A stretch of DNA of 64,000 nt from Dehalococcoidia bacterium (GCA_030648205.1 JAUSIH010000037.1:3744-67743); one strand, 5' to 3'; shown: positions 1 to 37,727, counted from the stretch's first letter. Translations and numbers: made by a program. Notes: a model not told the origin generated them from the letters alone.

Positions 1-528
1 CGCATTCATGGTCTGGCCGACAGGATTGCCCGGCGCATGGGTCTGCCCGACCAGGACCGGGCCGCTCTAGCCCTTGCCGCCGTCAGTAAAGACGTCGGTC
101 TTCTGGCCGTGCCGGACGGCATCCTGATGAAGCCGGGAACCCTGAACGCAGGGGAATGGGCGCACGTGTGGCTCCACGCGCCGGTGAGCGCGCAGTGTTT
201 CCAATGCGTATCCACACTGGGCGAGCACGGTCCCTCGGCGGCGCTTCCCATTGTTCGGCACCACCACGAGCGGTGGGACGGGACCGGGTATCCTGACGGC
301 CTCCGTGACAACGCCATTCCCCTGGGCGCCCGCGTTCTGGCCGTGGCCGATGCCTACGACTCCCTGACCCATGACCGTCCTCACCGGCGGCGCTACTCGC
401 AGCAGGAGGCGCAGGCCATTTTGCACGAAGGCGCGGGAAGCCAGTGGGACCCCACCATCGTCGCCACGCTCGGCGAGATTCTGGCTGATGCCGAGCATGG
501 CGGGGCGGAAGCAGACACGCTACAATAG
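1..528 (+). CDS. HD-GYP domain phosphodiesterase, C-terminal fragment (5' end outside window)
   Basis: Frame 1 is open from nt 1. Translation contains 'HHHERWDGTGYPDGL', the HD-GYP hallmark. Stop at 526-528. Confidence 0.7.
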   Translation, partial: RIHGLADRIARRMGLPDQDRAALALAAVSKDVGLLAVPDGILMKPGTLNAGEWAHVWLHAPVSAQCFQCVSTLGEHGPSAALPIVRHHHERWDGTGYPDGLRDNAIPLGARVLAVADAYDSLTHDRPHRRRYSQQEAQAILHEGAGSQWDPTIVATLGEILADAEHGGAEADTLQ

Positions 529-533
529 CGCGC

Positions 534-1745
534 ATGGGGCTTGACCTCTCCCGGACCGCGCGCCACATTGATAGCATGGCGGGCCGTCTCCACGACGGGG
601 CCGCCGACCAGGCCGGACGCCTGACGCGCGCCCGCGCTGTTCTGCATGCCCAGGATGCCCTGCTGGACGGGCTGCGGGAAAAGCTCAAGCGCGGCGGGGA
701 CAAGGTCAAGTTCCGGGTGGCGGGCCTTTCCGACGGTCTCGCCGCCCGCCACGCCGCGCCGAGCGCCCCGTCCGACTACGTGGCCCTGGGCGCCGACGGC
801 TCGCAAATCGAGGCCGACAGGCATACGCCCGCCGCATGCTTCCTGCTCAACATCGGCACGGTGTCCCTTCGCTATGGCGCGGCCCCCGGCGCCAGCCTGG
901 ACAGCGTCCCCCTGCTGCTCGCGGACGCCGCGGACCTGGAGGTGCGCGACCCCTCCAGCAGCCGGAGCGAGCGACTGGAGGGGCCGCTTCTGGGCGTGCG
1001 CCGGGCCATCGAGGAGCACAAGGCCCTGCTGGAGCTGGCGCGCCGCGCGCCCCCGGAGCTTCCGGTCGTGGCGCTGCTGGACGGTTCGCTGGTGCTGTGG
1101 ACGCTGGCGGAACAGGCCTACCCCGAGTTCGTGCGCGAGACGCTGCTGGACAAGGCGCTGCTGCCCGTCCTGGACGAGTTCGCCGCGCTGGCCCGGTCGC
1201 GGCCTCTGGCCCTTGCGAGCTACATCAGCTATCCTAGGAGCACGGACGTCGTCAACGCCCTGCGCGTCGCCGAGTGCCCGTACGCGCCGCCCGACTGCGA
1301 CCGCCACTGCTCCGGGATGGGCGCGTTCCAGCGCAAGTGCGACAAGGTGGGCGGCGTCCTTGACCGTGACCTGTTTAGCGGGCTGCTGGCCCCAGGCGAG
1401 CGCTCCGCCCTGTTCGATATCACGTCCAAGATCGTGCAGCGGTACGGGCGGCACGCGGTGCGGTTCTTCTACCTGAACGTGGGGAACGAGATCGCGCGGG
1501 TGGAGATGCCCCAGTGGGTGGCGGACTCGCCGCGCCTGCTGGACCTGGCCCACGGCCTGGCGCTCGACCAGTGCCGGCGCGGGCGCGGCTACCCGGTGTC
1601 CCTGTCGGAGGCGCACGAGCAGGCCGTGGTCCATGAGCCGGACCGCCAGCAGTTCTGGCATCTGGTGGAAAACGCCCTGGCCCGGCGCGGCATGCGCTCG
1701 GACACGTCCGCGAAGAACGTGAGCAAGAGGACGCGATGGCTATGA
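534..1745 (+). CDS. NurA-like 5'-3' nuclease
   Basis: 403 aa. 'YVALGADGSQIEADRH' matches NurA motif I (xDGS) and a second 'LLDGSLVLW' follows. It lies upstream of a HerA-like ATPase gene. Confidence 0.55.
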   Translation: MGLDLSRTARHIDSMAGRLHDGAADQAGRLTRARAVLHAQDALLDGLREKLKRGGDKVKFRVAGLSDGLAARHAAPSAPSDYVALGADGSQIEADRHTPAACFLLNIGTVSLRYGAAPGASLDSVPLLLADAADLEVRDPSSSRSERLEGPLLGVRRAIEEHKALLELARRAPPELPVVALLDGSLVLWTLAEQAYPEFVRETLLDKALLPVLDEFAALARSRPLALASYISYPRSTDVVNALRVAECPYAPPDCDRHCSGMGAFQRKCDKVGGVLDRDLFSGLLAPGERSALFDITSKIVQRYGRHAVRFFYLNVGNEIARVEMPQWVADSPRLLDLAHGLALDQCRRGRGYPVSLSEAHEQAVVHEPDRQQFWHLVENALARRGMRSDTSAKNVSKRTRWL

Positions 1746-2380
1746 CCAGCGGCGACAGCCCTTCCGCCGCAGCGCGCGCGCACGGCGCGGAAGGGCGGCG
1801 CATCGGCGAGGTGGTCCTGGCCGAAAGCGCGCGGTTCACCGTTCACTGCTACGATTTGCACGGAGCGCCGCCTCTGGGCGCGTTCCTGCGCGCCAGCAAC
1901 GGCCATACGCCGGTGTACGCCGTCGTGGCGGGCGCCTCCACGGTGAGCATTGACGCGGGACGGCGGCCCGTGGCCCTGGGCGCGGAGATGGAGAGCGAGG
2001 AGGAGGTGTACCGGAGCCAACCACAACTGGCGCAGCTCTTCCGGACGGAAGCGCAGGCCCTGGCCGTGGGCTTCCACGATCCTTCCACGGAAGGACCGCG
2101 GCACTACCTCCCGCCGCGTCCGCCGCGCATTCACGCTTTCGTGTACCTCTGTCCGCCGGAGGAGGTGCGGGCGTTCACCCAGTCGCTGGACTTCCTGGCG
2201 CTGCTGGCGAACGCGCCCATTCCCTCAGCGGACGACGTGCTGGCCGCGTGCGTCCGGGAGGCCGCCGCCGCCCACGACGACCGGCAGGCGTTCCTGCTGC
2301 GGGCGGGCCGGGAGACGGCGCGGCTGCTGGGCGCGGACGCGCAGCGGCTCATGGCTGTCCTGAAGCGCATACGGCCGTAG
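1736..2380 (+). CDS. hypothetical protein (overlaps NurA stop by 10 nt, probably co-transcribed)
   Basis: 214-aa ORF whose start is translationally coupled to the end of the NurA-like gene. No recognisable motif. Confidence 0.45.
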   Translation: MAMTSGDSPSAAARAHGAEGRRIGEVVLAESARFTVHCYDLHGAPPLGAFLRASNGHTPVYAVVAGASTVSIDAGRRPVALGAEMESEEEVYRSQPQLAQLFRTEAQALAVGFHDPSTEGPRHYLPPRPPRIHAFVYLCPPEEVRAFTQSLDFLALLANAPIPSADDVLAACVREAAAAHDDRQAFLLRAGRETARLLGADAQRLMAVLKRIRP

Positions 2381-2394
2381 GAGCTATTCCAAAA

Positions 2395-2812
2395 ATCGGC
2401 TTCATGGTTCGACCCTTCGGCTCTGCTCAGGGCAGGCAGGCTCACCATGAACGGGAAAACCACCGCTCACCCTGAGCTTGTCGAAGGGCGAACAGGCATT
2501 TTGAAATGACTTCTAGTGTGGTGTCTCCGAAATTCATTGCCAACGTCATTGCGAGCCCCGATGAAATCGGGGCGTGGCAATCTGGTTGCGGGGTACACCC
2601 CTCCTCCAGATTGCTTCGTCCTCCTTCCGCGGAAGGACTCCTCGCAATGACAATTCCTAAGCGTATTTCAAGGACAGGACGCCAGGTTCTGTTGACAATC
2701 TGCATTTCCCCGCTCATGGTGAGCTTGTCGAATCCATGAGCGGGATAACAATATCCCCCGCTCGCCCTGAGCTTGTCGAAGGGCGAGCGAACAAGGTCAA
2801 CAGAACCTAGCG
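2395..2812. repeat. composite MITE-like repeat cluster (modules 'gctcaccctgagcttgtcgaagggcga', hairpin 'gtcattgcgag...ctcgcaatgac', 'ctagtgtggtgtc')
   Basis: Sub-modules recur at 12826-12970, 26420-26700, 28330-28540, 32840-33060, 35832-36185 and 37303-37727. The ORFs inside (2442..2717, 2506..2739) are repeat-encoded artefacts. Confidence 0.75.
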
Positions 2813-2830
2813 CGGGAAGGAAAACGAGAG

Positions 2831-3721
2831 ATGAACATCGGCGTGATAGGAACGGGCAGAATCGGCTCGCGCATGGCGGCGAACCTGCTGAAGGCCGGCC
2901 ACAAGGTGTTTGTGCACGACGTCAGGAGAGAGGCGACGGACGCGCTCGTCAAGGCGGGCGCCGCGTGGGCGGACACGCCCGCCCGCGTCGCCGCGGCCAG
3001 CGACATGACCATTGCGTCGCTGCCCGGCCCTGCTGAAGTCGAGCAGGTCGCGCTGGGACAGGACGGCGTACTCGCCGGAGCGCGGAAGGGCCATATCTAC
3101 ATTGATACGACAAGCAGCTATCCCAGCCTGATACAGCGCATAGCGGCGGAGGCGGATAAGAAGGGCGTGCAGGTGATTGATGCGCCTCTGACGGGCGGCA
3201 CATCGGGCGCCGAAGCGGGGACGCTCATCTTCATCGCGGGCGGGTCGAAGGAGGCGCTGGAGAGGGCGCAGCCGATTCTGAGTGTGCTCGGCAGGAAGGT
3301 CTTTCACATGGGGCCGAGCGGCTCCGGCAACGCCGCGAAGCTGGTCAACAACATGCTCGGCCAGATAGAGGTCTATGCCTTCGCGGAGGCCCTGGCCTTG
3401 TCGGCGAAGTTTGGCCTGGACCTCAAGCAGGTTGTGGAACTGCTCAGCAGCGGGCAGACCGGCAGCGGCATCCTCACCCAGTTCTACATGAGCAAGGGGC
3501 TGAAGGGAGACTTCGAGCCGGGCTTTACCGTGGACCTGGCGTTCAAGGACCAGACACTCATTGCACAACTTGGCAGGGAGCTTGGCGTGCCGCTCTATTT
3601 CAACGCGCTTGTCCTTCAGAGGATTGCCGATACGCGCGCCCGGGGCTTGGGGTCGAAAGACCACACGGCGGCTATCATTCCGCTGGAGGAACTGCTCAAG
3701 GTCAAGATCAGGGTCGAGTAG
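2831..3721 (+). CDS. NAD-binding 3-hydroxyisobutyrate / 6-phosphogluconate dehydrogenase-family oxidoreductase
   Basis: N-terminal Rossmann motif 'MNIGVIGTGRIGSRMAANLLKAGHKV'. The 296-aa length and C-terminal helices match the HIBADH family. SD 'ggaaggaaaacgagag' precedes the ATG. Confidence 0.8.
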   Translation: MNIGVIGTGRIGSRMAANLLKAGHKVFVHDVRREATDALVKAGAAWADTPARVAAASDMTIASLPGPAEVEQVALGQDGVLAGARKGHIYIDTTSSYPSLIQRIAAEADKKGVQVIDAPLTGGTSGAEAGTLIFIAGGSKEALERAQPILSVLGRKVFHMGPSGSGNAAKLVNNMLGQIEVYAFAEALALSAKFGLDLKQVVELLSSGQTGSGILTQFYMSKGLKGDFEPGFTVDLAFKDQTLIAQLGRELGVPLYFNALVLQRIADTRARGLGSKDHTAAIIPLEELLKVKIRVE

Positions 3722-3820
3722 ACGCGAGGCCCACGCGCCGTCGGACGGTCCGACGGACATCGCTCGCCACGAAAGTTGCTCTGTATGCTACAATCCGAAT
3801 CGTTCTGCCTATGAATAAGT

Positions 3821-5467
3821 ATGAATAAGCAAGACGTGAACAAGGACGGCGCGCAGGCCCAGCGGCTCGGCGCGGTCGTCGGCGGATCGCTCGGCGAGGG
3901 GCTGGACGTCCACCTGGACGCCGACGTCTCAGTGGAGGACGTCAAGGTTGGCCGCTTCGTTACCATCCAGGGCCAGAAGCAGCGCTTCTTCGGCGTGGTG
4001 ACGGACGTGGCCCTGGCCTCCGCCGACCAGCGGCTGTCCGCCATCCCGCCGGACGCCAGCGACCCCTTCATCGCGCAGGTGCTGGCGGGCACGGGCGCGT
4101 ACGGCCTTATCACTGTCACGCCCATGCTCACCCTCGGCGGCGGCATCGCGGGCATCGAGGGGCCGCAGCCGGTCAAGACGGTGCCGTCGCACTTCTCGGA
4201 GGCGCGCACCGCCACGGACGCGGACGTGGAGCTGGTCTTCGGGCGCGAGGACGAGCACCATTTCGTGGTGGGCACGCCGCTGGACATGGAGACCAGGGTC
4301 TGCCTGGACCTGCACGAGTTTGTGAAGCGGAGCAACGGGGTCTTCGGCAAGAGCGGCACGGGCAAGAGCTTCCTCACGCGGTTGCTGCTGATTGGCATCA
4401 TTCAGAAGCAGGCGGCGGTCAACCTCGTCTTCGACATGCACAACGACTATGGGTGGGAGGCGCCCCGCGAGGGCGGCCCGCCCGTCAAGGGCCTGAAGCA
4501 GTTCGCCCCGGGCAGGGTGGCCGTGCTGACCCTCGACCCCGAGAACGCGCGCCGACGCCGCGTGTCCACGGACGGCGATGTCCAGATTGGCTTTGAGGAT
4601 GTGCAGCCGGAAGACATCGCCATGCTGCGCGAGACGCTCAACCTCACGCCGCTGGCGGCCCAGTCCGTGTACCGGCTGGTGAAGCGCTTCGGCTCGAAGA
4701 AGTGGTTGGGGGAGTTTCTAGCGCTGGACGCGGAGGGCGTGAACGCGCTGGCCGCCGAACTCGGCGAGCACGAAGGGACGCTCCACAACCTGAGGCGGGG
4801 CCTCGACCGGCTAGGCCGCATGGGCTTCCTGGCGCCGCGCGCTCCGGTGGACTCGGTGCAGACCATCCTGTCCAACCTCCAGCAGGGGAAACACGTCGTG
4901 CTGGAGTTCGGGCGGTACGGCGAAGACCTTGCCGCCTACGTCCTCGTCGCCAACATGCTGACCCGGCGCATCCGCGAGCGCTACGTGCATCTGATGGAGC
5001 AGGCCCAGGGCGATAGGGGCCAGATGCCCCGGCCCGTCGTCATCACCATTGAGGAAGCGCACAAGTTCCTGAGTCCCGAGGTGGCTGGCATGACCGCCTT
5101 CGGGACCATTGCACGGGAAATGCGCAAGTACAACGTCACCCTGCTGGTGGTGGACCAGCGTCCCAGCGGCATTGACGAGGAGGTCATGTCGCAGATCGGC
5201 ACCAAGATCACCTGTCTGCTGGACAACGAGCGGGACATTGACGCGGTGCTGACGGGCGTCTCCGGCAGCCGGGAGCTGCGCGGCGTCCTGGCCAAGCTGG
5301 AAACGAAGCAGCAGGCGCTCATCTTCGGGCACGCGGTGCCCATGCCCGTGGTCATCAAGACACGGGAGTACGGCACCGCCAAGTCCTACGCGGAGCTGAA
5401 GTTCGCGGACGCCTCTCAGTTGAAGCGCGCCGCCGAGGATGACATAGACCTGTTTCCCAAGCAGTAG
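3821..5467 (+). CDS. HerA-like (FtsK/HerA superfamily) ATPase
   Basis: N-terminal HAS-barrel-like region ('VKVGRFVTIQGQKQRFFGVVTDV'). Walker A 'FGKSGTGKSF', Walker B 'VVITIEEAHKF' and the HerA C-terminal 'LLVVDQRPSGIDEEV' are present. Confidence 0.75.
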   Translation: MNKQDVNKDGAQAQRLGAVVGGSLGEGLDVHLDADVSVEDVKVGRFVTIQGQKQRFFGVVTDVALASADQRLSAIPPDASDPFIAQVLAGTGAYGLITVTPMLTLGGGIAGIEGPQPVKTVPSHFSEARTATDADVELVFGREDEHHFVVGTPLDMETRVCLDLHEFVKRSNGVFGKSGTGKSFLTRLLLIGIIQKQAAVNLVFDMHNDYGWEAPREGGPPVKGLKQFAPGRVAVLTLDPENARRRRVSTDGDVQIGFEDVQPEDIAMLRETLNLTPLAAQSVYRLVKRFGSKKWLGEFLALDAEGVNALAAELGEHEGTLHNLRRGLDRLGRMGFLAPRAPVDSVQTILSNLQQGKHVVLEFGRYGEDLAAYVLVANMLTRRIRERYVHLMEQAQGDRGQMPRPVVITIEEAHKFLSPEVAGMTAFGTIAREMRKYNVTLLVVDQRPSGIDEEVMSQIGTKITCLLDNERDIDAVLTGVSGSRELRGVLAKLETKQQALIFGHAVPMPVVIKTREYGTAKSYAELKFADASQLKRAAEDDIDLFPKQ

Positions 5468-5542
5468 CAAGCGGTGCGCTGGCAAGAGGGATTCGCGGCG
5501 CGCCGCCAAGCAAGAATACTGACGACGCATAAGGAGGCATGT

Positions 5543-6673
5543 ATGCAAGCTCTGGTCATCGGCGGGAGCGGCCCGACGGGCCCGTTCATCATCAACGGGC
5601 TGCTGGCCCGGGGCTATCAGGTCACGGTGCTGCACCGCGGCTTTCACGAAGTGGAGTACGACAAGCCGGTAGAGCACATTCACACGGACCCCTACTTCCC
5701 GGAGCCGGTGAAGCAGGCGCTGGGCGACCGTCGCTTTGACGTCGCCATCGTCACCTACGGGCGGACCCGCCACATCGCGGACATCCTCGCGGGCAGGGTC
5801 AAGCACCTGCTGACGGCCAGCGGCTCGCCCGCCTACCTGGGGTGGCTGGACCAGAGCCAGGCGCCCAACGGGCGGCTGGTCGGCCCTCTGCGCGAGGACG
5901 ATCCCGTTGTCCGCGACCCCAGCGTCAACAAGTTGTGCTCGCTGGTCGTCGCGACGGAAGACAGCATCCTTGAGCATGGCAAGAAGGGCGACTTCCAGAC
6001 GACCATCTTCCGCTATCCGAACATCTACGGGCCGCGCATGCTCAACCCCCGCGAGTGGTGCGTCGTCCGCCGCGTCCGCGACGGGCGCAAGTTCATGATC
6101 CTGCCCTTCGGCGGCATGACCTTCCACGAGCGGACCTACGCGGAGAACGCCGCCTACGCCTTCATGCTGGCCGTGGAAAAGCCCTTGGCCGCGAACGGGC
6201 AGATTTACAACCTGGCCGAGGAGCGCAAGTACAGCCTGCGCCAGGTGGTGGAGGTCGTGCTGGAGGTCATGGGGGCCAAGATGGAGTTCCTGGACCTGCC
6301 CTGGGACTGGGCGGAGGCGGGAAAGCCGTTCATCCGGCACTGGCACCACAAATTGCTGGACAGCACCAAGCTCCGTCAGCAGCTTGGCTACACGGAGTTC
6401 GTTCCCACCGCGGAGGCGATGCGCAGGACGGTGGAGTGGTACGTGAAGAACCCGTTGAAGCCGGGCTGCGAGGAGGAGAAGACCCTGCAGGACGCCTTCG
6501 ACTACGCGGCGGAGGACAGGGTGTATGCGATTTGCAAAGAGACGTCCGCCAGACTGGCGGAAGCGTACCAGTCCAAGTTCGCCTGGCGCCACACGTACGA
6601 GCACCCGAAGGAGGTGGGCGAGAAGCGCTACGAGCAGGGATCGGCTCCAGGCAAGGGAAAGCAGCCGTCGTAA
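5543..6673 (+). CDS. atypical NAD(P)-binding (epimerase/NmrA-like) protein, paralog of 33109..34254
   Basis: 'MQALVIGGSGPTGPFIINGLLARGYQVTVLHRGFHEVEY'. SD 'aaggagg' lies 5 nt upstream of the ATG at 5543. About 50% identical to the protein at 33109. Confidence 0.65.
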   Translation: MQALVIGGSGPTGPFIINGLLARGYQVTVLHRGFHEVEYDKPVEHIHTDPYFPEPVKQALGDRRFDVAIVTYGRTRHIADILAGRVKHLLTASGSPAYLGWLDQSQAPNGRLVGPLREDDPVVRDPSVNKLCSLVVATEDSILEHGKKGDFQTTIFRYPNIYGPRMLNPREWCVVRRVRDGRKFMILPFGGMTFHERTYAENAAYAFMLAVEKPLAANGQIYNLAEERKYSLRQVVEVVLEVMGAKMEFLDLPWDWAEAGKPFIRHWHHKLLDSTKLRQQLGYTEFVPTAEAMRRTVEWYVKNPLKPGCEEEKTLQDAFDYAAEDRVYAICKETSARLAEAYQSKFAWRHTYEHPKEVGEKRYEQGSAPGKGKQPS

Positions 6674-6715
6674 CATCCCCGCGGTGCAAGAGGCGTCCAC
6701 GCTGAATCTCAACCT

Positions 6716-7780
6716 GTGAGGTCCGTCATGGCGACCCGCGCCCGCGTCCTGGACGTCCAGGACGACCTTGAGGTCATCAACGAGTACGCCTATGAGCAGG
6801 GCTGGACGGACGGCCTGCCGATTGTTCCGCCCACCCCTGCGCGCGTGAACGCGATGATGCGCGCCGTGGACCGCCGTCCGGATGACGTGGTGGCCCACCT
6901 GCCGCCGCTACGGGCCGCCGCGACGGTGGAGAAGATAGCCATCAGCGCCGTCATGGCGTGGTGCAAGCCGGAGTACTTCCCCGTCGTGCTCGCCGCGGTG
7001 GAGGCCGCCGCGGACCCGCGTCTGTGCATTATGGCCATGAACACGACAACGAACCCCACCGTGCCGTTCGTGCTCGTGAACGGGCCTGTGCGCAACGACA
7101 TAGACCTGAACTGCTCGTGGAGCGTGCTGGGGCCGCGCAAGCGCGCCAACGCGACGATTGGCCGCGCTCTCAGCCTCATCATGATCAATTTGGCGGGTCG
7201 TTTGCCGGAGCAGACGTGCAAGGCGACGTGGAAGATGCCGGGCGCGTTCACCATGTGCGCGGGTGAATACGAGGAGGAAAGCCCCTGGGAGCCTTTCCAT
7301 ACAGACCGGGGCTTCAAGAAGGACGAGAGCACGGTCACGCTCATGTCGCCCGTCTCCGCCGTGAACATCGTGGACAATGAGAGCCAGACGCCGGACGAGC
7401 TGCTCGCCAACATCAACGCGGGCATGTTGGGCGCGGGCAGCAACAACGTCTTTCCTTTCTACGGCATCGGGAACATGGGGCTGATGCTCTGCCCCAACCA
7501 TGCACAGCTTCTGGCCCGGCAGTACACTCGGCGACAGCTCCAGGAGCACTTCCTGACTCACCTCAGGCTGCCTGCGTCGTACCTCAGCCCCCGGCGCGTG
7601 GCGATGATGAAGTCGGCGGACCTGGGGCAGATTGAGGACGGCTATGTGCGGTACGCCGCCCGCGCCGACCAGTTCCTGATCTTCGTGGCGGGCGGACTCG
7701 GCGGGCTGCATTCCGGATTCTTCCCCACGCTGGGCGACTCCAAGGCGGTGACGTACCCCATCCGCCTGCCCGACAGATAG
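6716..7780 (+). CDS. uncharacterised conserved protein, 'GWTDGLPxVPPT' family, paralog 1
   Basis: 354 aa. Shares 'EQGWTDGLPIVPPTPARV...AISAVMAWCKPEYFPVVLAAVEA...VNGPVR...IGRA' with the ORFs at 7800 and 11769. Confidence 0.6.
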   Translation: MRSVMATRARVLDVQDDLEVINEYAYEQGWTDGLPIVPPTPARVNAMMRAVDRRPDDVVAHLPPLRAAATVEKIAISAVMAWCKPEYFPVVLAAVEAAADPRLCIMAMNTTTNPTVPFVLVNGPVRNDIDLNCSWSVLGPRKRANATIGRALSLIMINLAGRLPEQTCKATWKMPGAFTMCAGEYEEESPWEPFHTDRGFKKDESTVTLMSPVSAVNIVDNESQTPDELLANINAGMLGAGSNNVFPFYGIGNMGLMLCPNHAQLLARQYTRRQLQEHFLTHLRLPASYLSPRRVAMMKSADLGQIEDGYVRYAARADQFLIFVAGGLGGLHSGFFPTLGDSKAVTYPIRLPDR

Positions 7781-7799
7781 ACCGAATCGCGGGACGAGG

Positions 7800-8867
7800 T
7801 TGCGCATGGACCTTCAGTCACAGCGCGTGGAGACGGCGGGCGCCGACGATGCGATAGAGCTGTTCTTCGATAAGGGGTGGACGGACGGCCTGCCGGTCGT
7901 GCCGCCCACGGCGGAGCGGGTGGAGCGCATGATCGCCGCCGGTGGCCGTGGGGCGGATGAGCTTGTCGGCCTCATTCCGCCCAAGGGAAGCGCCGGTACG
8001 GTCGAAAAGCTGGCCGTGAACGCCGTGATGGCGGGCTGCAAGCCGGAGTACTTCCCCGTCGTCCTTGCCGCAGTGGATGCGATGCTCGCCCCCGAGTTCA
8101 ACTGGAACGGCGTCGCCACCACGGCGCACATCGCGTCGCCGCTCGTCATCGTGCACGGCCCTGTGCGCAAGCGCATTGGCGTGAACTGTGGCTGGGGGGT
8201 CTTCGGCAACGGGTGGCGCGCGAACGGGACCATAGGGCGCGCGGTCGCCCTCATCATGTGGAACCTGGGGGGCGCCATCCCCGGCGAGACCTGTCGCAAG
8301 ACCATGGGTCACCCGGGCAAGTGGAGCTACTGCATCGGCGAGAACGAGGAGGTCAGCCCGTGGCCGCCGTTCCACGCGGAGCGGGGATTCAAGCCGGAGC
8401 AGAGCGCGGTGACGGTCTTCGGGTGCGAGGCGCCGCACGGCGTGCGCTCGGTGGGCGACGCGAAGGCCGTGATGTACAGCATTGCCAGCGCGTACTCGAC
8501 CATTGCGAACAACAACATAGCGTACATGGGCCAGGCGCTGGTGGTCGTCGGCTCCCTCTGTGCCGAGGTGTTCAGGAACGAGAATTGGTCCAGGCAAGCG
8601 GTGCAGGAGTTCATCTGGCAGCACGCGCGCCTGCCCGTGGGCGTGGTGGACGGAAGCGGCACGTACTCCGAGGGGCTGGAGCACCACTTCTGGCCGCAGT
8701 GGGTGGACAGGAAGAATCCCCGCGATCTCGCGCCCATCACGAAAAGGCCGGAGGACATCCACGTGCTGGTGGCCGGCGGCTATGGCCGCTCGTGCGCCAT
8801 CTGCCCTGGCTGGGGTGAATTCGGCGGTTTCGCGGTCACGCGGGAGGTCCGGCTGGCTTCCCGCTAA
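7800..8867 (+). CDS. uncharacterised conserved protein, 'GWTDGLPxVPPT' family, paralog 2
   Basis: 355 aa. 'DKGWTDGLPVVPPTAERV...NAVMAGCKPEYFPVVLAAVDA', collinear with paralogs 1 and 3. Confidence 0.6.
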   Translation: MRMDLQSQRVETAGADDAIELFFDKGWTDGLPVVPPTAERVERMIAAGGRGADELVGLIPPKGSAGTVEKLAVNAVMAGCKPEYFPVVLAAVDAMLAPEFNWNGVATTAHIASPLVIVHGPVRKRIGVNCGWGVFGNGWRANGTIGRAVALIMWNLGGAIPGETCRKTMGHPGKWSYCIGENEEVSPWPPFHAERGFKPEQSAVTVFGCEAPHGVRSVGDAKAVMYSIASAYSTIANNNIAYMGQALVVVGSLCAEVFRNENWSRQAVQEFIWQHARLPVGVVDGSGTYSEGLEHHFWPQWVDRKNPRDLAPITKRPEDIHVLVAGGYGRSCAICPGWGEFGGFAVTREVRLASR

Positions 8868-8901
8868 ACCGGCCAGCCGCCAACCGCGCAGCGCCGAGAA
8901 A

Positions 8902-8940
8902 CGAAGGAGCGCCCCTCCGAGGGGCGCTCCTTCGTTCTGC
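8902..8940. terminator. bidirectional intrinsic terminator (perfect palindrome 'cgaaggagcgcccctc/cgaggggcgctccttcg')
   Basis: A 16-bp perfect inverted repeat lies between convergent genes (7800..8867 + and 8953..10704 -), followed by 'ttct'. Confidence 0.6.
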
Positions 8941-8952
8941 CGGGACCTGGCG

Positions 8953-10704
8953 TTAGCGGCTTATCCAGACCTTGTCCATCTTCAGATTGTCGTAGAGACC
9001 GTTGCCCGGCTCGTAGTCCCGCACTTCCTTCCACCAGGCGCGGTAGTACAGGTCCCAGTAGGACACAATGTAACCGCCGAGTTCAATGATGCGCAACTGC
9101 ATGTTGCGGACGATCTCCTTGCGCTTCGCTATGTCCAGCGTCCGTGTCTGCTGATCGTACATCGCGTCAATCTGCTTGTCGCTGAACGAGCCGAAGTTCC
9201 GAGAGCCGTCCGTCACGTAGAGCGCCGCGAAGGTCGGGTCGGGGTCGTCCATCGGCTCCGCGAGACCCCACCAGGCTGAATCGAAGGTCTTGTTGTTCAG
9301 ACGATCGAAGGCCGGCCCTTGCTCCTGCAGGTCTAGCTGTACGTCAATGCCGACCTCCGCAAGCTGCTGCTTGATAACGGGCCCCAGGCGGCCTGAGCCG
9401 CCGATGCGGTTGAGCATCACCGTCTTGGCGCCTTTGCCGTAGCCCGCGTCCGCGAGCAGTTTCTTGGCGGCCGCAATGTCCTGGGTCTTGTCCGGCCGAT
9501 AGCCGGGCAATTTGATCAGGTCATCTGGCGTAAGTCCCCAGACACCCTGAGGGTTTAGCGCCGCTCCTATCACGCCACCACCGCCGCCGGCCTTGAGCAT
9601 GTTCTGGCGGTCCAGCGCCAGTTGAACGGCCTGTCGGACGCGCACGTCCTTCCAGGGGTCGCGGGTCATGTTCATGAAGAAGACCGTGCGGGCGAGCGCC
9701 GGGTGTTCGGCGAGAGTGACGGTGCTGGCCATCTCCGTCCGGACGGTGTCCGCCTGGGTGGGCGACAGCGCGCGTGATGCGATGGTTGTTATGCGCACGC
9801 GGCCCGCGCGGAACGCCGCGAAGCGTGTGTTGTCGTCGCGGATGATGAAGAAGGTCAGGCCATCCATGTAAGGCAGGCCCTTGTCCCAGTAATTCGGGTT
9901 CTTCTTCATCTGAATGCTGACGTCACGGTCGTGCCTGGCCCACGTGAAGGGCCCCGTGCCGTTCACCACGCGCTTCATGTCACCGTTGTTTGCCAGAAGG
10001 GTGTGCTTGGGCATCATGAGGATGTTGTCCGTGGCCATGCCGCGCAGGAACGAGGCGCTGGAGAACTTGAGGGTCACGCGGACCGTGGAGGCATCTACCG
10101 CCTCGGCCTTGCTCATCGCGGCAAGGAGCGCCTCTCCCCGCGGGCTGATGGTCTTGAACTCCTGAGGGCGCGCCATGCGGGACAGGCTATAGACGACGTC
10201 TTCCGAGGTGAACGGCTTGCCATCGTGCCAGGTCACGCCCTTGCGCAGGCGGAAGGTATAGACCGTGCCGTCCCCGTTGACCTCCCAGCTCTCAGCAAGC
10301 TCCGGCACCACCTCACCGTGGTTCTTGTAGTGGTACTTGACCAGGCCGTCGTACACGTTGCGGAGCGGGGCGAGCGAGCTGACCGATGTCTGCTCAGCTA
10401 TGTCGTAGTTGGGCGGGTCCTCAAAGTGAGCTACGTTGAGGATGCCGCCGCTGGTGGGCTGCGCGCCGCCCGCGGCAGGCACGGGCGCGGGCGCGGAGGT
10501 CGGTGGGCGGGGCGTCGGCGAAGCGGCGGTCGCCGGCGCGGACGGTGCGGTGGGCACAGCGGTGGGCCGCGGTGCGGCAGTCGCCGCGGGCGCAGCGGGC
10601 GTGGGCGCGGACGGCGCGGGCGCAGCGGCTGGCGCGCACGCTCCGGCGAGGAACGCCAGGGCCAGGACGGCTCCTGATAGACGGTGCAAACTAGATAGTC
10701 TCAC
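8953..10704 (-). CDS. ABC transporter substrate-binding lipoprotein, family 5 (peptide/nickel type)
   Basis: SBP_bac_5-like body ('NVAHFEDPPNYDIAEQTSVSSLAPLRNVYDGLVKY'). Likely GTG start at 10704 with SD 'aagaggaggg', giving signal plus lipobox 'LAFLAGAC'. The longer ORF to 10860 is probably an over-extension. Confidence 0.75.
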   Translation of the reverse strand: MRLSSLHRLSGAVLALAFLAGACAPAAAPAPSAPTPAAPAATAAPRPTAVPTAPSAPATAASPTPRPPTSAPAPVPAAGGAQPTSGGILNVAHFEDPPNYDIAEQTSVSSLAPLRNVYDGLVKYHYKNHGEVVPELAESWEVNGDGTVYTFRLRKGVTWHDGKPFTSEDVVYSLSRMARPQEFKTISPRGEALLAAMSKAEAVDASTVRVTLKFSSASFLRGMATDNILMMPKHTLLANNGDMKRVVNGTGPFTWARHDRDVSIQMKKNPNYWDKGLPYMDGLTFFIIRDDNTRFAAFRAGRVRITTIASRALSPTQADTVRTEMASTVTLAEHPALARTVFFMNMTRDPWKDVRVRQAVQLALDRQNMLKAGGGGGVIGAALNPQGVWGLTPDDLIKLPGYRPDKTQDIAAAKKLLADAGYGKGAKTVMLNRIGGSGRLGPVIKQQLAEVGIDVQLDLQEQGPAFDRLNNKTFDSAWWGLAEPMDDPDPTFAALYVTDGSRNFGSFSDKQIDAMYDQQTRTLDIAKRKEIVRNMQLRIIELGGYIVSYWDLYYRAWWKEVRDYEPGNGLYDNLKMDKVWISR

Positions 10705-28329: not shown

Positions 28330-28540
28330 TCCTTCGACAAGCTCAGGACGAGCGGAAGATTGCCCCGCTCATGGTGAGCCTGTCGAACCATGAGCTTGCG
28401 CCTGCACCGTTGGGCCAGAATCCCTCACCCCCTGTGTCCCCCTCTCCCCAGGAGAGGGGGAGAGAAATGAATCTGGGGGTGTCCCCCAGACCCCCGCCAG
28501 AGGGGGACAACCCCTCTGGACTCCCCGCACATGGGCTGTC
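28330..28540. repeat. MITE-like repeat overlapping the 5' end of the larE-like gene
   Basis: Modules 'cgctcatggtgagcctgtcgaaccatgag' and 'ctgggggtgtcccccagacccccgccagagggggacaacccctctgg'. Confidence 0.7.
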
Positions 28541-31338: not shown

Positions 31339-31617
31339 GCCATTTTGCGACAACGGATTAGAGCAATACAACAATTACTTGGCACACAACTGACACGATC
31401 GTCACCGTCTAGGTGAAGAAGCCGCTGGACAAGGTGATTCCCGTGCGCCTGTCCGCGGACGTGTGGGAGGCCCTGCGCAAGGAGGCGCGTGAGCTTGGCG
31501 TCGGGCCGACGACGGCTGTGCTCGGAATGACAGGAAACGTCGGTCCGCTCATGGATTCGACAGGCTCACCACGAGCGGGCTATTATTTGGCCTGACGCTT
31601 AATTGAGAGGCCGTCCC

Positions 31618-35831: not shown

Positions 35832-36185
35832 CCCCTTTGAAAAAGCGGCGTCATTGCGAGTCCCGATGCAATCGGGACGTGGCAATCTGGAAGTGGGGGT
35901 GCGTCCCGTCCCCGCCGCATTGCCGTGAGAATGGCCTCTTCGTCATTCCCGCGTTCGCGGGAATCAAGGAAAGCCACGGGCATGGATTCCGGATCAAGTC
36001 CGGAATGACGGGTTGGTGGCCATGTTTTCATCTCCCGTGGCACCCCAATAGGGCATGGCTGATTGCCGCGCTGCGCTCGCAATCAGCGAACCGGGGGCGC
36101 CGCGTCTCCGCCAGATTGCTTCGCTCCGCTCGCAATGACGGACGGGGGGCGCTGCGTCCGCGGATGAGTGCACGGCTGTGTAGTA
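35832..36185. repeat. MITE-like repeat cluster (two 'gtcattgcgag/ctcgcaatgac' hairpin modules plus the 'ggattccggatcaagtccggaatgacgg' module)
   Basis: It begins right after the rnhA stop. Modules are shared with 2556-2668, 12900-12935 and 37588-37700. Confidence 0.7.
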
Positions 36186-37305: not shown

Positions 37306-37727
37306 TGTAGTGCTTTCGCAATCTCGTTACCTGCGAGACTCTGCAACGTTGATCGCCTTTGCATGGTTCCTGGTCTTTGACCCAGGGAACCATCCCCTTC
37401 AGTTCCCCTTTCCTTCTCCGAGGAAGGGGAATGAGGGATACTGGGGGTGACCCCCAGTGCCCCCGTCAAAGGGGGCTCTGCCCCCTCTGGCTCCCTCGTG
37501 CCGGAGATTCCAGACGCACCCCTTCCGTAACGAAGCGTTGGAAGCACTACACTAGTGTCCTGTCCCTGAAATACGCGTACGAAATTGTCATTGCGAGGAG
37601 TCCTTCCGCGGAAGGACAACGAAGCTATCGGGAAGAGGGATGGACCCGGCCGCCAGATTGCCACGGCCCTCCTTCGTCTGGCCTCGCAATGACATTGTGA
37701 CAAACTTCGGGGACACCACACTAGGAA
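37303..37727. repeat. MITE-like composite element bounded by 'ctagtgtagtg' (37304) and 'caccacactag' (37717)
   Basis: It contains the 'ctggggg...ccctctgg' module, a second internal TIR pair ('cactacactagtgtcc' at 37545) and the 'gtcattgcgag...cgcaatgac' hairpin. Confidence 0.75.

What the first reader, a model, noticed from the sequence alone, without database searches (positions are those of the whole stretch)
534..5467. Bacterial NurA-like nuclease / HerA-like ATPase locus split by an unknown ORF and a repeat-flanked dehydrogenase
A NurA-like protein (two DGS motifs) and a HerA-like ATPase (HAS-barrel plus Walker A/B, QRPS) are encoded on the same strand. They are separated by a translationally coupled 214-aa protein of unknown function, a ~420-bp block of MITE-like repeats and an unrelated NAD-dependent dehydrogenase. 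HerA-NurA pairs act in DNA end resection in archaea and some bacteria. HerA-like ATPases also partner with effector nucleases in anti-phage systems. The unknown middle gene and the interrupted arrangement make this a candidate variant repair or defence module.
Basis: partly seen in the sequence, partly recalled or inferred. Interest (0 to 1): 0.6.

Follow-up and report, generated by a model that had tools for sequence, protein, structure and literature searches.

The report
Three-gene NurA / HAS-barrel / HerA repair module
The "unknown" gene between a DNA-cutting enzyme (NurA) and its motor (HerA) is a conserved, uncharacterised partner that looks like the front end of HerA without its engine; it accompanies HerA across the bacterial phylum Chloroflexota, and only this lineage has a dehydrogenase gene inserted into the set.

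Summary
534-1745 encodes a genuine NurA, supported by Pfam (E 2e-29) and by a predicted fold closest to Sulfolobus NurA. 3821-5467 encodes a HerA with HAS-barrel, DUF87 and Walker A/B motifs. A dehydrogenase gene and dispersed REP/MITE-like repeats lie between them.

The interpretation needs correcting. The 214-aa "unknown ORF" does not interrupt the locus. It belongs to a large stand-alone family (more than 1,100 clusters at 50% identity). Its predicted fold (pLDDT 92) matches only the N-terminal HAS-barrel part of solved HerA proteins, followed by a helical domain with no detected relative, and it has no ATPase.

This small gene sits immediately upstream of herA in 77 of 78 Chloroflexota genomes. 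Searching from the HerA side finds it there in 73 of 76 metagenome contigs, often with a 4-nt overlap. NurA lies directly upstream in about half of the genomes. The normal unit is therefore nurA-small-herA.

The dehydrogenase and repeat insertion occurs only in this window and one close relative, and the genes there remain under purifying selection. Flanking genes are housekeeping and no defence system is detected, so a DNA end-resection machine with an undescribed third subunit is the best reading. How that subunit acts is inferred, not shown.

The parts
534..1745 (+). nurA: RNase H-like 5'-3' nuclease, 403 aa. Candidate catalytic residues are D88 (DGS), E161, D183 (DGS) and H361. A four-Cys cluster (C248, C255, C259, C269) is invariant or nearly so.
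   Evidence: Pfam NurA E=2.3e-29. NCBI names this exact protein 'DNA double-strand break repair nuclease NurA'. The AF2 model has pLDDT 90.9. The best PDB fold match is Sulfolobus NurA 2ygk at E=4.7e-9, followed by Argonaute PIWI and RNase H.
1736..2380 (+). Small HAS-barrel protein, 214 aa from ATG 1736 or 212 aa from ATG 1742. It has an N-terminal HerA-like HAS barrel (about aa 18-137) and a C-terminal five-helix domain (about aa 139-210), with no ATPase. It carries the conserved motif YLPPxPPRIHxF. It is the conserved partner of HerA in Chloroflexota.
   Evidence: No Pfam hit for this copy even at E<=10, but homologues pass the HAS-barrel cutoff, for example P0022 at 30.1 bits. AF2 gives pLDDT 92 and pTM 0.86. 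All top 50 Foldseek PDB hits are HerA chains aligned over 125-151 columns. hhalign gives a weak in-register match to HerA residues 9-73. dN/dS is 0.20 against L008.
2381..2830 (.). Mosaic of dispersed REP/MITE-like intergenic repeats. It includes three copies of CCGCTCACCCTGAGCTTGTCGAAGGGCGA and a ~137-bp element at 2544-2680. It is highly structured and is not part of the module.
   Evidence: Repeat families D1 and I1-I4. Further copies lie at 28331-28395, 31545-31579, 35849-35890 and 37557-37693, and in loci L057, L027 and L069. Fold z-score is -7.85. No Rfam match. The homologous spacer in L008 is different and lacks these repeats.
2831..3721 (+). Inserted passenger gene: an NAD(P)-dependent beta-hydroxyacid dehydrogenase of the HIBADH / 2-hydroxy-3-oxopropionate reductase family, 296 aa. 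It is unrelated to the module.
   Evidence: Pfam NAD_binding_2 and NAD_binding_11. It falls below every NCBIfam equivalog cutoff. It lies between the small gene and herA only in the window and L008; none of the 80 genome or 80 metagenome loci has it there. dN/dS is 0.08.
3786..3829 (+). herA 5' region. It contains a TGcTACAAT extended -10-like box (3786-3794), 26 nt before the ATG. It also has a perfect 10-bp tandem duplication TATGAATAAG x2 (3810-3829) spanning the herA start codon.
   Evidence: Read directly from the sequence. The consensus promoter scan did not call it because there is no -35 box, so promoter function is inference only.
3821..5467 (+). herA: HerA/FtsK-type hexameric dsDNA translocase ATPase, 548 aa, with its own N-terminal HAS barrel. 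It has Walker A at aa 176-183, Walker B/catalytic Glu in IEEAH at 410-414 and the DQRPS motif at 445-449.
   Evidence: Pfam DUF87 E=3.6e-27 and HAS-barrel 26.8 bits. Motifs. PDB sequence hits are HerA proteins (8wiv, 4d2i, 9x1l and others), matched only in the C-terminal ATPase region. It scores about 82 bits against NCBIfam HerA equivalogs whose cutoffs are 800-970, so it is a distinct clade. It is 53-69% identical to Chloroflexota homologues.

Best explanation
This is the Chloroflexota (Dehalococcoidia) version of the NurA-HerA DNA-end-resection machine. In this phylum it is normally a three-gene unit: nurA, a small HAS-barrel gene, and herA.

Shown here:
- HerA has all the ATPase motifs of a ring translocase.
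- NurA has the RNase H-like NurA fold and conserved acidic and His residues.
- The 214-aa protein is a stand-alone paralogue of HerA's N-terminal HAS-barrel domain with an extra helical domain and no ATPase.
- The small gene is almost always immediately upstream of herA, often overlapping it by 4 nt, and it directly follows nurA in about half of the genomes.

Inferred:
- In the solved and modelled complexes, the HAS-barrel ring of HerA is the face on which the NurA dimer docks (PMC9960219).
- The small protein is therefore most likely a stoichiometric third subunit. It would use its barrel to join or cap the HerA HAS collar and bridge or gate NurA, tuning how DNA pumped by HerA is handed to the nuclease.

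In this genome's lineage, a dehydrogenase gene and later REP-like repeats were inserted between the small gene and herA. All three genes stay intact, on one strand and under purifying selection, so the machine is probably still functional. herA may now be read from its own -10-like element.
For: Domain and fold:
- Searches cover NurA and HerA.
- Searches show the small protein is a HAS barrel.

Family size:
- 83 homologues with the single sequence.
- 818 with a profile.
- 1,133 clusters at 50% identity among 1.84 billion representatives, of which the 150 best listed are 148-372 aa, mostly about 190-250 aa.

Linkage from the small-protein side:
- herA is immediately downstream in 77 of 78 species-representative genomes with room.
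- nurA is immediately upstream in 39, lies 0.4-5.8 kb upstream in 15, and is absent within 10 kb in 18.

Linkage from the HerA side:
- The small gene is directly upstream in 73 of 76 metagenome contigs.

Other linkage evidence:
- A distant homologue (P0080) directly follows a NurA with no HerA nearby, which links the family to both partners.
- A cultured Dehalogenimonas carries nurA, a 102-aa ORF, the small gene and herA in that order.

Specificity of the insertion:
- The dehydrogenase lies between the small gene and herA only in the window and L008.
- A different gene is inserted at the same place in L131.
- dN/dS is 0.24 for NurA and 0.20 for the small protein between the two insertion-bearing genomes.

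Housekeeping context and lack of a fourth partner.

The HAS-barrel ring as the NurA docking face: PMC9960219.
Against: - No direct evidence of physical interaction exists.
- The window's own small protein does not reach any Pfam HAS-barrel score, and its sequence similarity to HerA is weak (hhalign E about 0.003, probability 11%). Homology therefore rests mainly on a predicted structure.
- In 18 of 72 genomes NurA is not within 10 kb. A few family members (P0076, P0077, L044) sit away from both partners. Two HerA loci lack the small gene.
- Repair rather than defence is inferred from context, not tested.
- Whether herA is still co-expressed after the insertion is unknown.
Confidence: 0.6

Rival explanations
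1. The small protein is a negative regulator or decoy rather than a structural subunit. By imitating HerA's HAS-barrel face it would sequester NurA, or it would intercalate into or cap the HerA ring to keep the nuclease-translocase inactive until DNA damage occurs.
For: The same structural evidence applies: a HAS barrel without an ATPase. The NurA docking face of HerA is the HAS ring (PMC9960219). A NurA-small pair exists without an adjacent HerA in L090.
Against: The tightest linkage, including 4-nt overlaps typical of stoichiometric co-production, is with herA rather than nurA. Nothing distinguishes inhibition from activation computationally.
Confidence: 0.2
2. The module is an anti-phage or anti-plasmid defence system in which HerA scaffolds a nuclease effector (here NurA), as in SIR2-HerA or DUF4297-HerA, with the small protein acting as sensor or adaptor.
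For: HerA matches PADLOC HerA models (best E=8.3e-33) and NCBIfam 'anti-phage-associated HerA', about as well as it matches repair HerA. The best PDB sequence hit, 8wiv, shares its sequence with the SIR2/HerA antiphage entries.
Against: - Those hits cover mainly the generic C-terminal ATPase region and are far below the family cutoffs (82 bits against 800-850).
- PADLOC has no hit for NurA or the small protein, and there is no SIR2 or DUF4297 partner.
- The module was found at conserved housekeeping positions in 133 species-representative genomes, next to SelB, HemN-like, Glu dehydrogenase, FakA/DegV or ArgG, and not in variable islands.
- Two loci do have an integrase or transposase-like gene nearby.
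Confidence: 0.1
3. In this particular genome the module is disabled. The dehydrogenase and repeat insertion would have uncoupled herA from nurA and the small gene, leaving the genes as decaying remnants.
For: 1,440 bp containing a foreign gene and strongly folding repeats (z=-7.85) separate genes that are otherwise contiguous or overlapping.
Against: - All three ORFs are full length and keep every family-invariant residue.
- dN/dS is 0.20-0.24 between two genomes that share the insertion.
- All genes remain on the same strand.
- A -10-like box precedes herA.
- Another lineage (L131) tolerates a different insertion at the same site.
Confidence: 0.07

Closest known systems
Archaeal HerA-NurA end-resection complex (Sulfolobus, Pyrococcus, Thermococcus; PDB 4d2i, 2ygk, 9x1l)
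   Same: It pairs an RNase H-like NurA nuclease with a HAS-barrel/RecA-like HerA hexameric translocase. The window's NurA model matches Sulfolobus NurA best. The small protein and HerA match these HerA structures.
   Different: The archaeal system has two components and is usually encoded in an operon with mre11-rad50 (PMC2288612 abstract). The locus here is bacterial and has no Mre11/Rad50 genes in the flanks examined. It carries a conserved third HAS-barrel-only protein. Sequence similarity is too low for phmmer or profile hits to solved NurA.
Deinococcus radiodurans NurA-HerA (bacterial type; PDB 7wrw/7wrx; PMC9960219)
   Same: It is a bacterial nurA-herA operon in which NurA docks on the HerA HAS-barrel ring and the complex resects DNA ends.
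   Different: It is a two-gene operon with no stand-alone HAS-barrel partner described in that paper. DrHerA is not among the sequence-level PDB hits of the window HerA, so the clades are distant.
HerA-scaffolded anti-phage systems (SIR2-HerA/Nezha, DUF4297-HerA; PDB 8sub, 8j4u, 8ziq, 9c1m)
   Same: A HerA hexamer partners with an effector. These HerA N-terminal domains are among the best structural matches of the small protein, and PADLOC HerA models hit the window HerA.
   Different: The effector here is NurA, not SIR2 or DUF4297. No PADLOC system is recognised, and the genomic context is conserved housekeeping.
Pfam PF09378 HAS-barrel domain / UniRef name 'Helicase HerA barrel domain-containing protein'
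   Same: Some family members pass the HAS-barrel cutoff and are automatically named this way: P0073, P0328 and P0022.
   Different: This is a domain label only. No dedicated family, function or paper was found for the stand-alone ~200-aa protein. The window copy itself is annotated 'hypothetical protein'.

Membership tests
NurA nuclease (PF09376) | Profile HMM match above the curated cutoff | tested here: met
   103.1 bits against a cutoff of 21, E=2.3e-29, covering aa 85-366.
NurA nuclease (PF09376) | RNase H-like NurA fold | tested here: met
   The AF2 model has pLDDT 90.9. The best PDB match is Sulfolobus NurA 2ygk at E=4.7e-9 and TM 0.54, followed by Argonaute PIWI and RNase H.
NurA nuclease (PF09376) | Catalytic Asp-Glu-Asp-His set (PfNurA D51/E105/D126/H411, PMC3300031) | tested here: inconclusive
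   D88, E161, D183 and H361 are invariant in 13- and 37-sequence alignments and occur in the same order. The residue-by-residue correspondence was not checked by superposition.
HerA translocase (PF01935 + PF09378) | DUF87/HerA central domain and N-terminal HAS barrel above cutoffs | tested here: met
   DUF87 scores 96.3 bits against 23.2. HAS-barrel scores 26.8 bits against 25.2.
HerA translocase (PF01935 + PF09378) | Walker A, Walker B/catalytic Glu and the QRPS motif | tested here: met
   GKSGTGKS at aa 176, IEEAH at 410 and DQRPS at 445. All are invariant in alignment A4.
HerA translocase (PF01935 + PF09378) | Hexameric ring that binds a NurA dimer | not testable with these tools
   This needs biochemistry or multimer modelling.
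NCBIfam curated HerA equivalogs (repair NF040819/NF040937; anti-phage NF042943/NF042944) | Score above the equivalog cutoff | tested here: not met
   Scores of 60-83 bits against cutoffs of 800-970. The window HerA belongs to none of the curated subfamilies.
Known HerA-based defence systems (PADLOC: SIR2-HerA, DUF4297-HerA, MADS) | HerA plus the cognate effector or partner genes in the locus | tested here: not met
   Only the HerA models hit. NurA, the small protein, the dehydrogenase and the downstream gene give no PADLOC hit.
HAS-barrel domain (PF09378), applied to the 214-aa protein | Profile HMM match above cutoff | tested here: not met
   The window copy has no hit even at E<=10. Homologues P0022 (30.1 bits) and P0041 (25.9 bits) pass the 25.2 cutoff, and several others fall just below it.
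HAS-barrel domain (PF09378), applied to the 214-aa protein | HAS-barrel fold as in the HerA N-terminal domain | tested here: met
   The AF2 model has pLDDT 92. All top 50 Foldseek PDB hits are HerA chains, with best E=1.2e-6 and 125-151 aligned columns. This rests on a predicted, not experimental, structure.

The most novel reading that the evidence does not exclude
Chloroflexota NurA-HerA may be an obligate three-component machine. In this reading a ring or collar of an ATPase-less HerA paralogue (HAS barrel plus a helical domain with no detected relative) stacks on, or inserts into, the HerA hexamer. It would then mediate or gate NurA docking. No such architecture has been described for any HerA system, whether repair or defence.
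Probability: 0.35. Interest if true: 0.65.

Novelty: new variant of a known kind. Interest (0 to 1): 0.45.

Why it matters
HerA-NurA is the model helicase-nuclease for archaeal DNA end resection, and HerA rings have recently emerged as scaffolds of several anti-phage systems. All solved assemblies I found in the PDB search are HerA alone or HerA plus an effector.

This work shows that an abundant environmental bacterial group (Chloroflexota, mainly Dehalococcoidia) almost always co-encodes an extra ATPase-less copy of the HerA docking domain. The effector-binding face of HerA may therefore itself be modular and regulated.

The question is directly testable. A cultured Dehalogenimonas carries the module, so co-expression, pull-down, ATPase and resection assays, and cryo-EM are all possible. 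The result would also give a name and context to a family of more than 1,000 clusters of hypothetical proteins.

For the window itself, the result is mainly a correction of the annotation logic. The "interruption" is the dehydrogenase, not the unknown ORF.

Tried and rejected
- Sequence searches of the small protein against Pfam, NCBIfam and PADLOC gave nothing for the window copy.
- A profile of the small family against PDB sequences gave only chance hits to mevalonate diphosphate decarboxylase at E about 0.7.
- BLASTP of the small protein against the window HerA found nothing significant. hhalign found only a weak in-register match for the N-terminal half and nothing for the C-terminal helical domain.
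- NurA, alone or as a profile, gave no PDB sequence hits. This was resolved by structure prediction and Foldseek.
- The first genome scan with the 42-sequence alignment failed for lack of a conserved stretch. It succeeded with a 12-sequence subset.
A paired small+HerA or small+NurA complex model could therefore not be attempted.
- An apparent NurA::small fusion protein (P0126) looked like Rosetta-stone evidence. Its NurA motif breaks off mid-way (GYPVALAEA|PRTGG...), so it is best explained by a frameshift or read-through artefact and was discarded.
- A search for a fourth conserved partner, by clustering all flanking ORFs, found only housekeeping neighbours and antisense shadow ORFs.
- Three literature searches found no description of a stand-alone HAS-barrel partner of HerA.
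- Rfam found nothing in 1-7000.
- The sigma-70 scan found no convincing promoter or terminator on the + strand.
Full report
**1. What is in the sequence**

The window is a 64-kb piece of a Dehalococcoidia (Chloroflexota) MAG; the 214-aa protein is identical to NCBI locus Q7T26_04050. The region 1-9000 carries the following genes, all on the + strand:
- the 3' end of a GAF/HD-GYP-type gene (37-528, Pfam HD_5);
- nurA (534-1745);
- a 214-aa ORF (1736-2380);
- a 450-bp non-coding block (2381-2830);
- a dehydrogenase gene (2831-3721);
- herA (3821-5467);
- an epimerase-like gene (5474-6673);
- two tandem paralogues with no Pfam match (6716-7780 and 7800-8867).

Pfam confirms NurA (PF09376, E=2.3e-29). 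It confirms HerA (DUF87 E=3.6e-27; HAS-barrel 26.8 bits against a cutoff of 25.2). It also confirms a beta-hydroxyacid dehydrogenase (NAD_binding_2 and NAD_binding_11).

The two DGS motifs lie at aa 88 and 183. The nurA stop codon overlaps an ATG of the next ORF as ATGA.

**2. NurA and HerA are genuine but divergent**

NCBI already names the window protein 'DNA double-strand break repair nuclease NurA'. It has no sequence-level hit to any solved structure, even as a profile.

An AlphaFold2 model built on 37 homologues has pLDDT 90.9. Its best PDB match is Sulfolobus NurA 2ygk (E=4.7e-9), followed by Argonaute PIWI domains and RNase H. That is the expected NurA/RNase H-like fold.

D88, E161, D183 and H361 are invariant in the family. 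They follow the order of the PfNurA catalytic set D51/E105/D126/H411 (PMC3300031). The correspondence is inferred from order and invariance, not from superposition. A four-Cys cluster (C248, C255, C259, C269) is invariant or nearly so.

HerA matches solved HerA proteins only in its C-terminal ATPase part. It scores about 82 bits against NCBIfam repair and anti-phage HerA equivalogs whose cutoffs are 800-970. It is therefore a separate HerA clade.

**3. The 'unknown' 214-aa ORF**

This ORF is real and conserved:
- 83 homologues with the single sequence;
- 818 with a profile;
- 1,133 clusters at 50% identity in a filter-free HMM scan of 1.84 billion representatives, where the 150 best listed are 148-372 aa, mostly about 190-250 aa.

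Named members are almost all Chloroflexota/Dehalococcoidia, plus one from candidate division KSB3. They are called 'hypothetical protein' or, automatically, 'Helicase HerA barrel domain-containing protein'.

The window copy has no Pfam hit even at E<=10, but homologues P0022 and P0041 pass the HAS-barrel cutoff (30.1 and 25.9 bits against 25.2) and others fall just below it.

An AlphaFold2 model on 42 homologues is confident (pLDDT 92, pTM 0.86). It shows a beta-barrel with an inserted helical hairpin (about aa 18-137) followed by five helices (139-210). All of the top 50 Foldseek PDB matches are HerA chains: Thermococcus, Sulfolobus, DUF4297-HerA, SIR2-HerA, Deinococcus and TdpA. They align over 125-151 columns, which corresponds to the N-terminal part of HerA.

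Profile-profile comparison with the partner HerA family gives only a weak match, but it is in register: small 14-75 against HerA 9-73, E about 0.003. The C-terminal helical domain matches nothing.

The family's strongest motifs are GEV, PPLG, RRPVARG and YLPPxPPRIHxF. The protein is thus an ATPase-less paralogue of the HerA N-terminal domain.

**4. Comparative genomics**

*From the small-protein side.* A scan of one genome per species found relatives in 133 genomes. The 80 best loci are all Chloroflexota. tblastn of the window proteins on these loci gave the following:

| Feature relative to the small gene | Count |
|---|---|
| herA immediately downstream (loci with room) | 77 of 78 |
| nurA immediately upstream | 39 |
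| nurA 0.4-5.8 kb upstream | 15 |
| nurA absent within 10 kb | 18 |
| upstream flank too short to judge nurA | 8 |

The gaps between the ends of the tblastn matches for the small gene and herA run from -27 to +482 nt. Called genes overlap by 4 nt in L003, L006 and L173.

*From the HerA side.* A metagenome scan gave 80 contigs at 53-69% identity. The small gene is directly upstream of herA in 73 of the 76 contigs with room. In one contig (L131) a 283-aa transglutaminase-like ORF is inserted between them. Two contigs lack the small gene.

*Other cases.*
- A distant family member (P0080) directly follows a 415-aa NurA with no HerA nearby.
- Two members at 35-37% identity (P0076, P0077) have neither partner nearby.
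- A cultured Dehalogenimonas sp. 4OHTPN has nurA, a 102-aa ORF, the small gene and herA in that order.

Clustering all flanking ORFs found no fourth conserved partner. The commonest neighbours are SelB, a HemN-like radical-SAM enzyme and Glu/Leu dehydrogenase. In L001 and L002 the neighbours are FakA/DegV and ArgG, which is housekeeping synteny.

**5. The interruption**

The dehydrogenase lies between the small gene and herA only in the window and in L008. L008 is a groundwater contig whose NurA is 94% identical and whose small protein is 88% identical, with the same GAF-HD / nurA / small / dehydrogenase order. None of the other 160 loci has the dehydrogenase there.

The spacer upstream of the dehydrogenase differs between the two genomes. 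The window's 450-bp block is a mosaic of short dispersed repeats that recur elsewhere in the window and in other Dehalococcoidia genomes. It folds far better than shuffled sequence (z=-7.85) and matches no Rfam family. 'MITE-like' is therefore a fair description, and the repeats arrived independently of the dehydrogenase.

Between the two insertion-bearing genomes, dN/dS is 0.24 for NurA, 0.20 for the small protein and 0.08 for the dehydrogenase. All family-invariant residues of NurA, the small protein and HerA are retained. The module has not decayed.

A TGcTACAAT box lies 26 nt before the herA ATG (3786-3794). A gCTACAAT box ends 7 nt before the nurA ATG (520-526). Their promoter function is only an inference; the consensus scan did not call them.

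**6. Mechanism**

The following comes from the literature. HerA hexamers translocate dsDNA. The NurA dimer docks on the ring of HAS barrels. Together they resect DNA ends (PMC9960219; abstracts).

The following is shown here. All catalytic motifs are present. There is also an extra, ATPase-less HAS-barrel protein that is genomically tied first to herA and second to nurA.

The following is inferred. The small protein is a stoichiometric third subunit that uses its barrel to associate with the HAS collar of HerA. It would bridge, cap or gate NurA. A decoy or inhibitor role is the main rival, and the two cannot be separated computationally.

**7. Repair or defence**

PADLOC recognises only generic HerA models and no partner. 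The module was found in 133 species-representative genomes, all of the 80 listed being Chloroflexota, and it sits in stable housekeeping neighbourhoods. I therefore favour a housekeeping DNA-repair role. Defence is not excluded (about 0.1).

**8. Novelty and verdict**

NurA and HerA here are already annotated and ordinary. The dehydrogenase and repeats are incidental.

The new element is the conserved stand-alone HAS-barrel partner. No family model, function or paper was found for it.

I classify the finding as a new variant of a known kind and score interest at 0.45. It is of real interest to HerA/NurA specialists and directly testable, but the mechanism is inferred and the window is an atypical, interrupted instance of the module.

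Noticed in passing
window 6716-7780 and 7800-8867 (+): Two tandem paralogous genes of 354 and 355 aa, 36% identical (E=1e-71), sharing a GWTDGLP(I/V)VPPT motif. The first has no Pfam match at E<=0.01. They lie just downstream of herA and an epimerase-like gene.
   Followed up: partly
window 3810-3829: A perfect 10-bp tandem duplication, TATGAATAAG x2, spans the herA start codon. The first copy creates a 5-codon mini-ORF (ATG at 3811, TAA at 3826-3828). It may be a scar of the rearrangement that inserted the dehydrogenase.
   Followed up: no
window 520-526 and 3788-3794: The same octamer gCTACAAT (a -10-like box) occurs twice. One copy ends 7 nt upstream of the nurA ATG, which would imply a leaderless mRNA. 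The other ends 26 nt upstream of the herA ATG and is preceded by TG. The consensus promoter scan called neither.
   Followed up: no
window 28331-28395, 31545-31579, 35849-35890, 37557-37693: Further copies of the short dispersed repeats found in the 2381-2830 block, including a 137-bp copy at 85% identity. Related copies occur in other Dehalococcoidia genomes (L057, L027, L069). This looks like a class-wide REP/MITE-like repeat family.
   Followed up: partly
L173 4674-4982 (Dehalogenimonas sp. 4OHTPN): A 102-aa ORF with no Pfam hit lies between nurA and the small HAS-barrel gene in this cultured organism. It may be a lineage-specific extra component.
   Followed up: no
L131 867-1718: In a metagenome contig, a different gene is inserted between the small HAS-barrel gene and herA: a 283-aa ORF that looks transglutaminase-like by eye. 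The same junction has therefore been hit independently.
   Followed up: partly
L160 4100-4942: One of the two HerA loci that lack the small gene has instead a 280-aa ORF directly upstream of herA. Its N-terminus looks like a DnaQ-type exonuclease (read by eye, not tested).
   Followed up: no
window 37-528 (+); L008 1997-3652: The gene upstream of nurA is the C-terminal HD_5 (HD-GYP-like) part of a GAF-GAF-HD signalling protein that is cut by the window start. The close relative L008 has the full 551-aa gene in the same position.
   Followed up: partly
protein P0126 (metagenome): An apparent NurA C-terminus::small-protein fusion of 372 aa. The NurA motif GYPVALSEAHEQ is broken mid-way, so it is most likely a frameshift or read-through artefact rather than a natural fusion.
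   Followed up: yes
window NurA aa 248-269 (about nt 1275-1340): A Cys cluster (CPY..C.RHC...C) that is invariant or nearly so in Chloroflexota NurA proteins. It may be a metal-binding insertion, and no role for it was established here.
   Followed up: no
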